From assembly GCA_016196625.1 (NCBI GenBank), contig JACPXH010000007.1:86461-150460 (forward strand): a stretch of DNA of 64,000 nt. The letters run 5' to 3'. Below are positions 1 through 6,283 of this stretch, piece after piece (within the stretch, counting starts at the first letter, position 1; the number at the start of each line of letters is the position of its first letter). The position numbers and the translations under genes were made by a program. Below the pieces are notes generated by a model, which was not told where the DNA came from, made no database searches, and worked only from the letters and a program-made list of their open reading frames with translations. The stretch is from Candidatus Parcubacteria bacterium (lineage in GTDB: Bacteria; Patescibacteriota; Minisyncoccia; JACPXH01).

Positions 1-1423
1 CGCGAGCTTCATCCGCCATCGGGTGAACAGTGAGATTCTGGAGGTAACGCTCCAGAACGGAAGAACGGTAGCAATCACGCCGTATCATTCTCTCTTTACG
101 CTTCATGACGGGGCGGTCGTGCCGGTACGAGGGAGCGATCTGGAAGTGGGCAGCTACGTCGTGGTTCCGAAATCGTTCCCAGAATCTTTGCAGCGCATAA
201 CCGACCTCAACCTCCTCAACGAATTCGCCGTACTCCCAGCCGAGAAGACCGCATCGCTTAATCTCTACGGCGTGCGAGAGCTCATCACCGACGACCTGAA
301 GCCAACACTCCAAGCATACATCGAGAAGGCCGGGTACCGGACGCACCCAGCACAGGTGGTGAGAGATTATTGCCGGTACGATTACCTGCCGTTCAACGCG
401 TGGCGGCTCTTCCCCGACGACATCAAGCAAAAGTTCATCACGTGTCGTCTCGGCAACAAACGCAAGACCGACTTCGCGCTTCCCTGTCAGTTTCCGGTTT
501 CCCGCGCCTTCATCGAGCTTTTGGGGCTCTACGCCGCCGAGGGCACCAGCTTTACGGGTGGGACGAACCGCAAGACCAGCCGTGTGGTCTTCAGCTTCGG
601 CACCCACGAACAGGACCTCATCGCCTACACCGTCCGCCTCATCTCGGAGGTCTTTGGGTATCCGGCAAAGCCACACTACGTCCACGATACTGCTACCACC
701 GTCCAGATTGATTCCCTTACGGTGGTTCTCTTGTTCCGAGACATTCTCCGGGCGGGCGGCAACAGCCACACGAAACGGATCCCCCCGCTCGTTTTTAACG
801 TGCCAGCCGCGTTTCGCGAGCGCTACCTCACCGCCTATCTTGCCGGAGACGGCTATCCATCTCGCATATTCACGCAGCATCTCCTTGCCGGTTCTGCGCC
901 AGGTGCCCAGGAGCGGACAAAATTTTCGGCGCTCTCCGCGAGCAAGACGCTGCGGGATGGGTTGAGCTACCTTCTTTTTTCACTTGGTAAAACATTCTCG
1001 CTGGGTGAGAAGCACCAGCCCGGTGGCGGCACCGTCTCACTGGCGTACCGAGGCAAGGCAAGGCAGGTGAGTTTCCGTCGGGCCACCACCAGCTGGTTTC
1101 TTGAATTCTATTGGCATACCAATAGTTCCTACCTCACCCGTCTGCCGGTACAGCCATTGGTGTCTCATATCTCATGGGCGAAGCCGTACCACTTCAGCGT
1201 CGCCACCCGCGGCGGGATAACCCGCGAGAAACTCACGACACTCCTTGAAGCCGGACGGATGACGTTGTACCCGGATACGCCGCGTTTCCTCGATTCTGAC
1301 CTCGGCGCACTTAAGGTCGTGAAGATTCGGAACATCCGTTACGCCAAGCCATGGGTGTATGATTTTTCCGTGCCGGGTGGCGAGAACTTCGTCGGCGGTG
1401 CGGGACCCGTCATGGTACATAAT
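1..1423 (+). mobile_element. gyrB intein 1 (N-terminal end outside window) with LAGLIDADG homing endonuclease domain
   Basis: [10 protein letters not shown] and [18 protein letters not shown] motifs; C-terminal block VMVHN followed by extein S of NS(T)DEA. Confidence 0.75.
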
Positions 1424-4400: not shown

Positions 4401-6283
4401 TAACAAAAGAGACGGCCCAGCTCAAGGTCGGCGATCTGGCCGTATTACCCCGTGCCTTGCCGCGCTTGGACAGAGAGATTACGATCGACACCCGCGAAAC
4501 GCTGCTTATCTCATCAGCGCGTCTTTCGTACAAGGTGCCGTATGGTGCGCTGTTGACTGTGCCAGCAGAGGCGCTGGTTGATTTGTCAAAAGCAACTTGG
4601 TGTCTCTTGAAGCGCGCGCGCCTGCGCGCCGGGTTCTCTCGTGCCCGAATCGGTCAAACGATCGGCGTAGCCAAGCCCGTGGTGCAGCAGTGGGAAGAAA
4701 AGCTTGACAATGTCATGCCCAGATTCTCTTCGCTGCAGGCCTACACCAGCGTGCTGGACCAGAGCTTACTGCAGAAAATTTTGCCGGCTGGCGCGGTATA
4801 TCTTCCCATGCCATCCCAGCGACCCTTTCTAGCGAATGTTGTCAGCAGCGGAGAGTTTTACCTCGGTAACCATACCCATCGCATCAAGACGAAGTTCCGC
4901 CTCGATGAGCACCTCGCCTATGTGCTGGGGTGGTTCCTGGGCGATGGTTGTTTCAGCCCGCAGGAGCGCAGTCCTAATCGCTTCATCATCTCGCTGGGGA
5001 AAGATAAGGCGTGGTATACCCAGTCCCTTCAGTGGGCGTTAGAACGCGCCCTAGGAGCCCATAGCTTTGTGTCTCCCGCAGCGGACGGCAGCGCTGTGAT
5101 GTATTTTCATTCATTTTCATTCAGAATTTTGCTTGAGCACCTCGGTCTTCTCGGCAAGCGGTCGCATGAAAAATTCGTTCCCCCAGAACTTTTCAGCATA
5201 AAGGCCAACATCGCCAAAGCATTTTTGCGCGGTTTGCTGGAGAGCGATGGATTCATTATCGCTCCGAGCCGAGGTCGTACGGATACCGTGCGCTTGGGCT
5301 ATTCGACATCGTCACGCCGGCTGGCCGAGGGGGTTCTTGTCTTGTTGCGCCAATTGGGGGTATTGCCCGGCATTACTTCACGTTTCCCAAAGACCCACCC
5401 GCGTGCCGACGGCACGCCCATTGAAAGCCGCCACCGTAATTTCTTGATTTCGGTTGTGGGGATCGATCAGTTGGTTGGCCTGCGTGATATTTGGTCTGAA
5501 CACAAACGTGGACGGGCACTCCTTCAATATCTACAAGTCATTCGTCGGCAAGCTCCCCGAAGATGGCAAAAGAAGATTGTCGGCGACGCAGTCCTGGCCG
5601 AGATTACCTCCATTCGGACGATCGACCGCCCCGATGCTTTTGTGTATGATTTGGCCGTTGACCTTGATGAAAACTTCGTTGCATCCGGCGCTGGAATTTT
5701 GCTGCATAATACCGACGGCGCGCACATCCGGACTTTGCTCCTCACCCTTTTCTTCCGGCACTTTCAGCCGATGATTGAGGGCGGATACCTATACATCGCG
5801 CAGCCGCCGCTGTATCGAATCCAGATGGGCAAAGAGGTGCGGTACGTGTACAGCGATGTTGAGAAGGACGCGACGATTGGGGAATTTCAAAAAATCAAAA
5901 CTTTATCCCGAGTCGCGTCGAGGGATCAAAAGGCAAAAGGCAAAACTACAAAGCAACCTTCGTTCCGAGCTCCCCTCGATCCGACTCAGGGTGGAGGACA
6001 GGTCGAGACGGAAGTTGACATCAGCGAAGAAGCGGCGGAAGCTGGCAGCGGCGATGAGCGCTTGAAAGGCGTTTCCATTCAGCGGTATAAGGGTTTGGGG
6101 GAGATGAATCCCGATCAGCTTTGGGAGACAACCATGAATCCGGCCAATCGTGTCATGCTGCGCGTTACCATGGCCGATGCCAAGGCCGCGGCCGAGCTCT
6201 TTGATATCCTCATGGGCTCTGAAGTGGGACCGCGTAAGCGCTTCATTCAGACCCATGCGAAGAAGGCGAATTTGGACATTTAG
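1..6283 (+). CDS. gyrB: DNA gyrase subunit B, 5'-partial (ORF open to window start); host protein interrupted by >=3 inteins
   Basis: Extein motifs: [17 protein letters not shown] (GHKL ATPase), EGDSAGG (toprim), IMTDAD...[14 protein letters not shown]-terminal RFIQTHA..LDI; three in-frame insertions starting Cys/Ser and ending HN+Ser/Thr. Confidence 0.9.
2618..3913 (+). mobile_element. gyrB intein 2 (432 aa) carrying an HNH-type endonuclease plus repetitive basic helical repeats
   Basis: Starts [13 protein letters not shown] right after EGDSAGG; HNH motif [30 protein letters not shown]; repeats (KKQWQNVEY / [11 protein letters not shown] / AKRQWES); ends VFVHN|S; coding DNA markedly AT-richer than flanks. 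Confidence 0.8.
4121..5710 (+). mobile_element. gyrB intein 3 (530 aa) with LAGLIDADG homing endonuclease
   Basis: Inserted in IMTDAD|xDGAHI; starts SVTGDTPIL; motifs [11 protein letters not shown] and [12 protein letters not shown]; ends LLHN|T. Confidence 0.8.

What the first reader, a model, noticed from the sequence alone, without database searches (positions are those of the whole stretch)
1..6283. gyrB carrying at least three inteins with three different endonuclease solutions
Within ~6.3 kb there are three inteins: one ending VHN|S in the ATPase NS-DEA block (LAGLIDADG), one in the toprim EGDSAGG|C site carrying an HNH motif plus KxQW repeat helices, and one at DAD|xDGAHI (LAGLIDADG). 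Only ~660 of 2086 codons are gyrase. The HNH intein's DNA (2640-3600) is much AT-richer than the host gene, which suggests recent lateral arrival. HNH endonucleases are uncommon in inteins.
Basis: partly seen in the sequence, partly recalled or inferred. Interest (0 to 1): 0.6.

Follow-up and report, generated by a model that had tools for sequence, protein, structure and literature searches.

The report
Gyrase B gene carrying three inteins
The gyrase B gene of an uncultured ultra-small (CPR/Saccharibacteria-like) bacterium is interrupted by three self-splicing protein introns (inteins); each belongs to an intein family already present in public data, so it is a clear but ordinary example of selfish elements piling up in one essential gene.

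Summary
Window 2..6283 (+) is one open frame, cut at the window start. It encodes 657 GyrB codons and three in-frame inteins with intact splicing residues.

- **Intein 1** (<1..1423) sits at the ATPase N-box (VDN|S) and carries a LAGLIDADG endonuclease.
- **Intein 2** (2618..3913) sits at toprim EGDSAGG|S and carries an HNH endonuclease plus a helical repeat region.
- **Intein 3** (4121..5710) sits at toprim DAD|T and carries a LAGLIDADG endonuclease plus an HTH-like insert.

That is two endonuclease kinds, not three.

Intein 2 belongs to the abundant GyrB toprim-site HNH intein family: 663 database hits across CPR, cyanobacteria, Chloroflexi and archaea. From memory, this family includes the classic Synechocystis GyrB intein. 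Intein 3 has about 58 metagenomic relatives at the same site. Intein 1 is rarer, and its nearest non-GyrB relatives sit at the same motif of archaeal Top6B.

A relative with about 90% identical extein DNA (L001) has intein 1 but empty sites for inteins 2 and 3. Third-position GC is host-like in intein 1 (0.70), intermediate in intein 3 (0.59) and low in intein 2 (0.49). This supports stepwise acquisition with intein 2 last.

Two-intein gyrB genes exist in metagenomes. I found no other gene with all three. Verdict: new members of known kinds, modest interest.

The parts
1..1423 (+). Intein 1 (site a, GHKL N-box VDN|S): the C-terminal 474 of about 542 residues. The start lies upstream of the window. 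Features: block B ITPYHSLF at 74-100; LAGLIDADG motif 1 ([10 protein letters not shown]) at 509-550; motif 2 (YLAGDGYP) at 824-862; blocks F/G ...VMVHN at 1352-1423.
   Evidence: The full-length homologue in L001 (88% aa identity) starts EVVDN|SLTYETPVLV. Family members sit at the same site in GyrB and Top6B. pN/pS against L001 is 0.16.
1424..2617 (+). GyrB extein segment (398 aa): the rest of the GHKL ATPase domain, the transducer domain and the start of toprim, up to EGDSAGG. Ser at 1424 is the +1 nucleophile of intein 1.
   Evidence: Pfam HATPase_c and DNA_gyraseB; NCBIfam gyrB. 90% nt identity and pN/pS 0.04 against L001.
2618..3913 (+). Intein 2 (site b, toprim EGDSAGG|S), 432 aa. Features: Cys1 block A at 2618-2647; block B CTPNHLF at 2831-2851; HNH motif [29 protein letters not shown] at 3068-3154; conserved Trp-rich helical repeats (KxQW) at 3272-3589; blocks F/G ...GVFVHN at 3845-3913. 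GC3 is low for about 2580-3650 and host-like for 3660-3913.
   Evidence: AF2 model pLDDT 86.9 with a beta-beta-alpha element at residues 151-185 followed by an all-helical region 190-393. Hint fold hits in PDB. Composition.
3914..4120 (+). GyrB extein segment (69 aa): toprim core, SAKQGRD...IIIMTDAD. Ser at 3914 is the +1 nucleophile of intein 2.
   Evidence: Pfam Toprim. Colinear with the uninterrupted L001.
4121..5710 (+). Intein 3 (site c, toprim DxD motif, DAD|T), 530 aa. Features: Ser1 block [11 protein letters not shown] at 4121-4150; block [10 protein letters not shown] at 4355-4381; HTH-like insert at 4598-4726; LAGLIDADG motif 1 (LGWFLGDG) at 4913-4957; motif 2 (LLESDG) at 5219-5260; blocks F/G ...GILLHN at 5639-5710.
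   Evidence: AF2 model pLDDT 84.5, pTM 0.85. Best PDB matches are PI-PkoII 2cw7 (E=2e-24), TliVMA, PI-PfuI and PI-SceI. About 58 metagenome loci have the same intein at the same site.
5711..6283 (+). GyrB extein segment (190 aa plus stop): the end of toprim ([12 protein letters not shown]...), a lineage-variable acidic/basic insert, and the C-terminal GyrB domain. Thr at 5711 is the +1 nucleophile of intein 3; the intein-free relative has Val (GTG) there.
   Evidence: Pfam DNA_gyraseB_C. Codon ACC against GTG in L001.

Best explanation
Window 1-6283 is the 3' 6.28 kb of the gyrB gene of an uncultured CPR/Saccharibacteria-like bacterium. The taxon label comes from the record title of the closest relative.

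**What the gene encodes.** The precursor is about 2,220 aa by analogy with the relative, and about two-thirds of it is intein. Three class-1 inteins are inserted in frame, each at a catalytic motif:
- a: the Mg-ATP-binding Asn of the GHKL N-box (VDN|S);
- b: the toprim EGDSAGG|S loop;
- c: the toprim DxD metal site (DAD|T).

**Protein level (inferred from the intact residues).** Each intein excises itself after translation by the standard route: an acyl shift at Ser1 or Cys1, transesterification to the +1 Ser or Thr, Asn cyclisation, then an O-N shift. The product would be a GyrB of about 715 aa. Gyrase is normally essential, so all three should have to splice.

**DNA level (inferred).** Each intein carries a homing endonuclease: LAGLIDADG in a and c, HNH with helical DNA-binding repeats in b. 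The endonuclease would cut an intein-free allele at the same motif, and repair would copy the intein in, dragging a few flanking codons with it.

**History (inferred from comparison).**
- Intein a is old and vertically inherited. It has host-like GC3, is shared with the relative at the same synonymous distance as the exteins, and is under purifying selection.
- Inteins c and b came later.
- Intein b came last, from a low-GC donor.
For: **Intein calls and boundaries.**
- Continuous ORF.
- Three Intein_splicing, intein_Nterm and intein_Cterm matches and all GyrB domains in order.
- Blocks A, B, F and G and the +1 nucleophiles are intact.
- L001 reads through sites b and c without inserts and supplies the intein-a start.

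**Endonuclease domains.**
- HNH_3 in 18 of 22 family members, and the PHROG HNH family at E=2.3e-7.
- H153, H154, N162 and N166 invariant, and H175 and H179 nearly invariant, across 39 sequences.
- Intein c model matches PI-PkoII at E=2e-24.
- LAGLIDADG acidic residues are present in a and c.

**Site fidelity of each family.**
- b: every junction-bearing hit reads GDSAGG|C (46) or FVHN|SAK (88).
- c: the junctions recovered in the metagenome loci read DAD|S...N|T/S.
- a: VDN|S...HN|S.

**Order of arrival.**
- GC3 is 0.70 (a), 0.59 (c) and 0.49 (b), against 0.70 in the adjacent extein.
- pS of intein a (0.39) is about equal to pS of the extein (0.36), and pN/pS is 0.16.
- Substitutions against L001 are enriched within 30 nt of the site-b junctions: 15 of 60, against a background of 10.8%, binomial p=0.0015.
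- The downstream flank reads SAKQGRD, as in the intein-bearing family consensus. The two intein-b-free relatives deviate from it: L001 has SAKMGRN and P0149 has SAKMGRD.
Against: - No splicing or cleavage was measured; activity is inferred from conserved residues only.
- The start of intein a and the N-extein are outside the window and are known only from an 88%-identical homologue.
- The HNH fold was not confirmed by structure search, because the Foldseek hits of the whole model were all Hint domains, and a profile search of PDB sequences found nothing significant.
- Absence from one relative cannot by itself separate gain from loss.
- The last ~250 nt of intein b have host-like GC3 (0.70), which a simple single recent import does not explain.
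- The junction-substitution test assumes independent sites, and 4.7% of ordinary 30-nt extein windows are equally divergent.
Confidence: 0.88

Rival explanations
1. Inteins b and c were already present in the common ancestor with L001 and were lost precisely in the L001 lineage, for example by conversion with an intein-free allele. They were not gained in the window's lineage.
For: - Intein loss and re-invasion cycles are the accepted life cycle of homing elements (general knowledge).
- A second relative with intein a (P0149, 60% identity) also has an empty site b, so empty alleles circulate.
- The 3' fifth of intein b has host-like GC3. This could be a remnant of an old resident copy.
Against: - GC3 of most of intein b (0.35-0.5) and part of c is far below the host's 0.70, while intein a is fully host-like. 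An ancestral element should have ameliorated as a did.
- The flank codons next to site b differ from L001 in the direction of AT-richer synonymous codons, as expected for imported DNA.
Confidence: 0.12
2. The inteins still splice, but their endonucleases are dead relics. On this view the elements are now fixed passengers that no longer home.
For: - No activity data exist.
- Many LAGLIDADG inteins are known to have inactive nucleases (general knowledge).
- Within these same families some members are shortened or degenerate: site-b inteins of 229-381 aa, and GDR in place of GDG in P0137.
Against: - All three copies here are full length with every conserved catalytic residue.
- The endonuclease region of intein a shows pN/pS 0.17 against L001.
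- Presence/absence polymorphism at b and c between close relatives, plus co-converted flanks, points to recent mobility.
Confidence: 0.2
3. The low-GC block is an assembly chimera. On this view a metagenome assembler joined reads of a different, AT-richer organism's intein-bearing gyrB into this contig through the conserved toprim motif.
For: - The compositional step is abrupt, at about 2580 and about 3650.
- The upstream step coincides with a very conserved motif.
- The window's own contig and reads could not be retrieved.
Against: - The reading frame, both splice junctions and all intein blocks are intact.
- The downstream step lies inside the intein, not at a conserved extein motif.
- An exact k-mer overlap between a GC3-0.7 genome and a GC3-0.4 genome at two points is unlikely.
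- The best database relatives of the block are only 55-75% identical, so no obvious co-assembled donor is known.
Confidence: 0.04

Closest known systems
GyrB toprim-site HNH intein family. From memory, this includes the Synechocystis sp. PCC6803 'Ssp GyrB' intein used for split-intein engineering, and the gyrB intein allele of cyanobacteria and haloarchaea in Soucy et al. 2014.
   Same: - Same insertion point (GDSAGG|SAK), Cys1/Ser+1 and the C-terminal GVFVHN.
- Same size class: 432 aa here, 429-435 aa for full-length members.
- Same HNH motif and Trp-rich helical repeats.
- 46-57% identity to CPR, cyanobacterial, Chloroflexi and archaeal members.
- Splicing of Ssp GyrB was shown experimentally (PMC3620165).
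   Different: - The host is a CPR-like bacterium.
- No sampled relative is closer than 57% over the full length, or 75% over the first 105 aa.
- The composition is mosaic: AT-rich for the 5' 80% and host-like for the 3' 20%. This is not seen in two other members examined.
- The direct comparison with the Ssp GyrB sequence itself rests on my memory of that sequence, not on a tool.
LAGLIDADG intein endonucleases of the PI-PkoII / PI-PfuI / PI-SceI type, with TFIIB mini-inteins matching the Hint part
   Same: - Hint domain split by a two-motif LAGLIDADG domain plus an extra DNA-binding region.
- The intein 3 model matches 2cw7 (E=2e-24, TM about 0.6), 7qss, 1dq3 and 1vde.
- The Hint parts of inteins 1 and 3 match 5o9i and 2cw7 by sequence.
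   Different: - Different host protein and sites.
- Both use Ser1 rather than Cys1.
- Intein 3 has a conserved HTH-like five-helix insert (Pfam HTH_3, E=0.02 only) between the Hint and nuclease parts.
- Sequence identity to solved structures is under 20% over the whole model.
Top6B N-box inteins of archaea (top6B allele of haloarchaea and DPANN)
   Same: - The closest non-GyrB relatives of intein 1 (33-36% identity over the full length, E=2e-47 to 9e-65) sit at the homologous position of the same GHKL motif: VDN|S...HN|SLDA.
- They have the same Ser1/Ser+1 and the same LAGLIDADG motifs.
   Different: - The host is a different, paralogous topoisomerase subunit in another domain of life.
- TFIIB inteins at an unrelated site are also hit at 27-31% identity, so the extra similarity is modest and no tree was built.
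Multi-intein genes (Trichodesmium RIR with four inteins and DnaE with three; gyrB genes with two inteins in metagenomes)
   Same: - Several independent inteins sit at different conserved motifs of one replication-related gene. Ter RIR-1..4 and Ter DnaE-1..3 are listed in PMC3620165.
- Metagenomic gyrB ORFs occur with sites a+c (L030, L032) and b+c (L033, L024, L019).
   Different: Among the roughly 58 site-c loci retrieved, none has all three sites occupied. Many of those loci are truncated, however, so this is a weak negative.

Membership tests
Intein (Hint-fold, class 1 protein splicing), intein 2 | N-terminal Cys/Ser, block B TxxH, block F, C-terminal His-Asn followed by a Cys/Ser/Thr +1 residue; in-frame insert whose removal restores the host motif | tested here: met
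   C1 (CWSGDT), [19 protein letters not shown] and VHN|S are present. Pfam Intein_splicing E=7e-18. The model matches DnaE, DnaB and RecA intein structures. L001 reads EGDSAGG-SAK with no insert.
Intein (class 1), intein 3 | Same as above | tested here: met
   S1 (SVTGDTP), [17 protein letters not shown] and LHN|T are present. Pfam E=3e-18. L001 reads MTDAD-VDGAHI. The junctions recovered in the metagenome loci all have Ser1 and Thr or Ser at +1.
Intein (class 1), intein 1 | Same as above | tested here: inconclusive
   Block B TPYH, blocks F/G and VHN|S are seen in the window. The N-terminal nucleophile lies outside the window. It is Ser in the 88%-identical L001 copy and in all family members.
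All three inteins | Actual protein splicing | not testable with these tools
   Inferred from intact residues and from the fact that gyrase is normally essential.
HNH (beta-beta-alpha-Me) endonuclease, intein 2 | His-His ... Asn ... Asn ... His motif on a beta-hairpin plus helix; match to an HNH profile | tested here: met
   [14 protein letters not shown]...EHTALH is present. HNH_3 gives E=0.013 for this copy and matches 18 of 22 family members, best 7e-6. PHROG 7545 'HNH endonuclease' gives 2.3e-7. Predicted strands lie at 151-154 and 167-170 and a helix at 172-185. The motif residues are invariant in 39 sequences. The fold-level match was not obtained.
LAGLIDADG homing endonuclease, intein 3 | Two LAGLIDADG helices each ending in an acidic residue; alpha-beta-beta-alpha-beta-beta-alpha fold | tested here: met
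   LGWFLGDG and LLESDG are present. Pfam LAGLIDADG_3 E=4e-11. Foldseek hits include PI-PkoII, PI-PfuI, PI-SceI, I-DmoI and I-OnuI.
LAGLIDADG homing endonuclease, intein 1 | Same as above | tested here: inconclusive
   The motifs LGLYAAEG and YLAGDGYP are conserved across the family. Pfam gives only E=0.0026, below the cut-off. Several homologues in the table carry PF14528. No structure was predicted.
GyrB toprim-site HNH intein allele (Ssp GyrB type) | Insertion exactly between GDSAGG and SAK of GyrB, with sequence homology across the whole intein | tested here: met
   663 hits at E<=1e-5. Every hit in which a junction motif was found has GDSAGG|C (46) or FVHN|SAK (88). 100% coverage at 46-57% identity, including cyanobacterial members.
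Homing (DNA-level mobility) of inteins 2 and 3 | Endonuclease cleaves the empty allele; intein plus flanks are copied in | not testable with these tools
   Indirect evidence only: an empty allele in a 90%-identical relative, clustered flank substitutions (p=0.0015) and foreign GC3.
InBase catalogued GyrB insertion sites (GyrB-a/b/c nomenclature) | Identity of sites with named catalogue entries | not tested
Literature searches for site names found nothing relevant.

The most novel reading that the evidence does not exclude
This is the first gyrB seen with all three known intein sites (N-box, EGDSAGG, DAD) occupied, and its inteins form a dated series of old, intermediate and recent. The recent HNH intein would itself be a recombinant: an incoming AT-rich allele replaced the 5' 80% (nuclease included) of an older, ameliorated resident copy. 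That would document in-situ allele replacement, meaning rescue of a decaying intein by a fresh one, rather than the textbook cycle of invasion into empty sites only.
Probability: 0.2. Interest if true: 0.45.

Novelty: new member of a known kind. Interest (0 to 1): 0.3.

Why it matters
- The locus is a compact natural example of intein accumulation at three catalytic motifs of one normally essential enzyme in a reduced-genome CPR-like bacterium.
- A close relative supplies the matching empty sites. That gives ready-made substrates for testing two homing endonucleases, one HNH and one LAGLIDADG, and for testing splicing of Ser1/Thr+1 inteins.
- The pair offers a small, clean data set on co-conversion and amelioration.
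- It does not reveal a new mechanism. Each element has relatives at the same site in public data, and multi-intein genes are well known.

Tried and rejected
**Recovering the window's own contig, to see the 5' end of gyrB.**
- Exact look-ups of the nusG and rplK products found nothing.
- An exact 44-mer from the window start found nothing in the metagenome collection.

**Structural confirmation of the HNH fold.**
- Foldseek on the whole intein 2 model returned only Hint domains.
- A profile of the HNH region against PDB sequences gave only chance hits.
- The HNH call therefore rests on motif, Pfam and PHROG evidence.

**Literature.**
- The Dalgaard 1997 paper is not held.
- Searches for 'GyrB intein'+HNH, for GyrB-a/b/c site names, and for CPR+intein gave nothing useful.
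- The supplement of Novikova 2016 is not held.

**Looking for a donor of intein 2.**
- I blasted its three parts separately against the 120 best hits.
- The best were 75% (N-terminal Hint), 58% (nuclease) and 62% (C-terminal Hint) identical, in different proteins, so no donor could be named.

**Readings considered and rejected.**
- A fourth intein inside the visible gyrB part: only three Hint matches are found, and the spliced exteins are colinear with L001.
- 'Intein 3 is very rare', suggested by only 7 hits in the word-indexed protein search: a pattern scan of metagenome contigs found about 58 full-length copies.
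Full report
**What is in the sequence**

A single reading frame runs from window base 2 to a stop at 6283 and is open at the window edge. Pfam and NCBIfam place the GyrB domains in the normal order: HATPase_c, DNA_gyraseB, Toprim and DNA_gyraseB_C. They also find three Intein_splicing, intein_Nterm and intein_Cterm matches.

Reading the junctions directly:
- Intein 1 occupies <1..1423, ends VMVHN and is followed by S-TDEAMAG.
- Intein 2 occupies 2618..3913 (CWSGDT...GVFVHN, 432 aa), between EGDSAGG and SAKQGRD.
- Intein 3 occupies 4121..5710 (SVTGDT...GILLHN, 530 aa), between IIIMTDAD and TDGAHI.
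- Every splicing block that can be seen is intact: TPYH, TPNH and TAHH in block B, and HN plus Ser, Ser or Thr at the C-junctions.

**Independent proof of the boundaries**

A scan of one genome per species found one close relative, L001. It is contig CAYPCM010000046.1, titled 'uncultured Candidatus Saccharibacteria bacterium'.

- Its gyrB is 90% identical in extein DNA and 86% identical in intein 1 DNA.
- It supplies the part missing from the window: a 58-aa N-extein ending EVVDN, then intein 1 starting SLTYETPVLV. Intein 1 there is 542 aa with Ser1.
- It has no insert at the other two sites, reading EGDSAGG-SAKMGRN and MTDAD-VDGAHI.

So the three elements are discrete insertions at the GHKL N-box Asn, the toprim EGDSAGG loop and the toprim DxD motif. 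The mature protein would be about 715 aa.

**Endonuclease domains**

Intein 3:
- It hits LAGLIDADG_3 at E=4e-11.
- An AlphaFold model built from an 8-sequence family alignment has pLDDT 84.5 and pTM 0.85.
- The model matches PI-PkoII (2cw7, E=2e-24), TliVMA, PI-PfuI and PI-SceI.
- Both acidic motif residues are present and invariant across the family alignment ([14 protein letters not shown]).
- A family-conserved five-helix HTH-like insert lies between the Hint and nuclease parts. Pfam HTH_3 gives only E=0.02 for it.

Intein 1:
- It shows the motifs [10 protein letters not shown] and YLAGDGYP, conserved across its family.
- Pfam is only weak for this copy (E=0.0026).
- Several homologues in the table carry PF14528.

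Intein 2:
- It carries [29 protein letters not shown].
- HNH_3 is matched by 18 of 22 family members, best E=7e-6.
- A phage HNH endonuclease family matches at E=2.3e-7.
- The motif residues are invariant or nearly so in a 39-sequence alignment.
- The model (pLDDT 86.9) places them on a beta-beta-alpha element, followed by about 200 residues of helices that carry the conserved KxQW tryptophans.
- A fold-level HNH match could not be obtained.

The gene therefore holds two endonuclease kinds, not three.

**How common each element is**

Intein 2:
- It belongs to a large family with 663 proteins at E<=1e-5.
- Every retrieved member with a visible junction sits at GDSAGG|C...FVHN|SAK.
- Members occur in CPR bacteria, cyanobacteria, Chloroflexi and archaea, at 46-57% identity over the full length.
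- This is the gyrB intein allele discussed for cyanobacteria and haloarchaea by Soucy et al. 2014 (PMC4071816).
- From my memory of its sequence, it is also the family of the Synechocystis Ssp GyrB intein, whose splicing is experimentally established (PMC3620165).
- An HNH intein has been known since Dalgaard et al. 1997 (title seen). That it was the Synechocystis gyrB intein is my recollection.

Intein 3:
- It looked rare in the word-indexed protein search, with 7 GyrB hits.
- A pattern scan of metagenome contigs then found about 58 full-length copies at 32-50% identity.
- Every junction recovered among them lies at DAD|S...N|T/S.

Intein 1:
- It is truly uncommon. Only 28 cluster representatives reach E<=1e-30 among 1.84 billion proteins.
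- A handful of these are GyrB from CPR, Acidobacteria and Chloroflexi.
- The nearest other hosts are archaeal Top6B proteins carrying the intein at the homologous N-box position.

**Multi-intein gyrB genes**

- Among the site-c loci, complete ORFs carry a+c (L030, 1752 aa; L032, 1892 aa) or b+c (L033, 1808 aa). L024 and L019 carry b+c but are partial.
- P0126 also combines b and c.
- None carries all three, though many loci are truncated.
- Three or four inteins in one gene are known elsewhere: Ter DnaE-1..3 and Ter RIR-1..4 (PMC3620165).
- GyrB is among the 15 most intein-rich bacterial proteins (PMC4760082).

**History**

Third-position GC:
- It is 0.70 in the adjacent extein and 0.70 in intein 1.
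- It is 0.59 in intein 3 and 0.49 in intein 2, where it runs at 0.35-0.5 for 2580-3650.

Intein 1 against L001:
- It has the same synonymous divergence as the exteins (pS 0.39 against 0.36).
- It is under purifying selection: pN/pS is 0.16 overall and 0.17 in the nuclease region.
- This fits vertical co-inheritance of a still-constrained element.

Sites b and c:
- Both are empty in L001, and site b is also empty in P0149.
- Substitutions against L001 are enriched within 30 nt of the site-b junctions: 15 of 60, against a background of 10.8%, binomial p=0.0015. About 5% of ordinary 30-nt windows are as divergent.
- The downstream flank reads SAKQGRD, as in the intein-bearing family consensus. 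The two intein-b-free relatives deviate from it: L001 has SAKMGRN and P0149 has SAKMGRD.
- At site c the +1 codon is ACC (Thr) where the empty allele has GTG (Val).

Loss in the L001 lineage cannot be excluded, but it fits the composition poorly.

**An unexplained detail**

The last ~250 nt of intein 2 (3660-3913) have host-like GC3 of 0.70. Two other family members show no such step, and their inteins match their hosts throughout. One possibility is recombination between an incoming AT-rich allele and an older resident copy. I could not test this, because no relative closer than 55-75% is available.

**Verdict**

It overstates the diversity of endonucleases and the rarity of this particular HNH intein. 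The locus consists of new members of known intein alleles in a combination I did not find elsewhere. It is a tidy example rather than a surprise.

The surrounding window shows the same genome is crowded with selfish elements. These include a dnaE intein with a T7-endonuclease-I-like nuclease, and group I introns and other inserts in the 16S and 23S rRNA genes.

Noticed in passing
window 19576..23859 (- strand), intein at about aa 599-972 of DnaE: dnaE carries a fourth intein (FQFE|CISGET...SFVVHN|SNG) whose insert is neither LAGLIDADG nor HNH. It has a Cys4 zinc-ribbon-like CQRC..CYRCSAC, NUMOD3-like motifs (Pfam E=0.0012) and a T7-endonuclease-I-like PD-(D/E)XK domain. Support for that domain: PHROG 'Holliday junction resolvase' E=1.2e-14, Pfam Phage_endo_I E=0.006, PDB 3cae/1m0d E about 0.03, and the motif YTPDFY...FYEIKG. 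This is the real 'third endonuclease solution' in the window and is probably more unusual than the HNH intein.
   Followed up: partly
window 31075-34886: The 16S rRNA gene is stretched to 3.8 kb. A group I intron (RF00028) lies at 32364-33306 and holds a 254-aa LAGLIDADG ORF at 32518..33282 (Pfam E=1.5e-8). Rfam's best whole-gene match was, oddly, the archaeal SSU model.
   Followed up: partly
window 42949-49888: The 23S rRNA gene spans about 7 kb in three Rfam pieces (42949-46225, 46283-46463, 47359-49888), with a group I intron at 46469-46736 and further unassigned inserts. This is typical of CPR rRNA genes (compare PMC11270868).
   Followed up: no
window 34886-42949: The 16S-23S spacer is about 8 kb. 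It holds tRNA-Ile (35145) and tRNA-Ala (40023) far apart, with protein-coding ORFs between and around them: an APH-like kinase at 35096..36226, an RmlD/epimerase-like ORF at 38964..39878 and a methyltransferase at 40138..40914.
   Followed up: no
window 2580-3913: Intein 2 is compositionally mosaic. GC3 is 0.35-0.5 up to about 3650 and then 0.70 (host-like) for the last ~85 codons. Two other members of the family (L024, L033) show no such step. This may reflect recombination between intein alleles.
   Followed up: partly
P0144, P0146, P0150, P0151, P0154 (archaeal Top6B) against window 1-1423: The nearest non-GyrB relatives of intein 1 (33-36% identity over the full length) sit at the homologous Asn of the GHKL N-box in archaeal topoisomerase VI subunit B. 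This suggests transfer of one intein lineage between paralogous host proteins through the shared motif. TFIIB inteins are also hit at 27-31% identity, so the signal is modest.
   Followed up: partly
window 17800-19000 (ORF 18098..19522, - strand): This is the second low-GC patch of the window (GC about 0.46). It lies over a 474-aa ORF with no Pfam match, between thrS and dnaE.
   Followed up: no
L033 8817-10397 and L028 10831-12405: In two metagenome loci a second, distant (31-32% identity) full-length match to the HNH intein lies a few kb downstream of gyrB. It is presumably an HNH intein in another gene, possibly gyrA.
   Followed up: no
window 9249..10537 and 12810..14480: Two overlapping dCTP-deaminase-like ORFs lie in tandem at 9249..9968 and 9902..10537. 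gatB carries a low-complexity Asn/Gln/Thr-rich insert (...TNPNFQNANTGKSQITNHKSQTNSNLQNPKT...).
   Followed up: no
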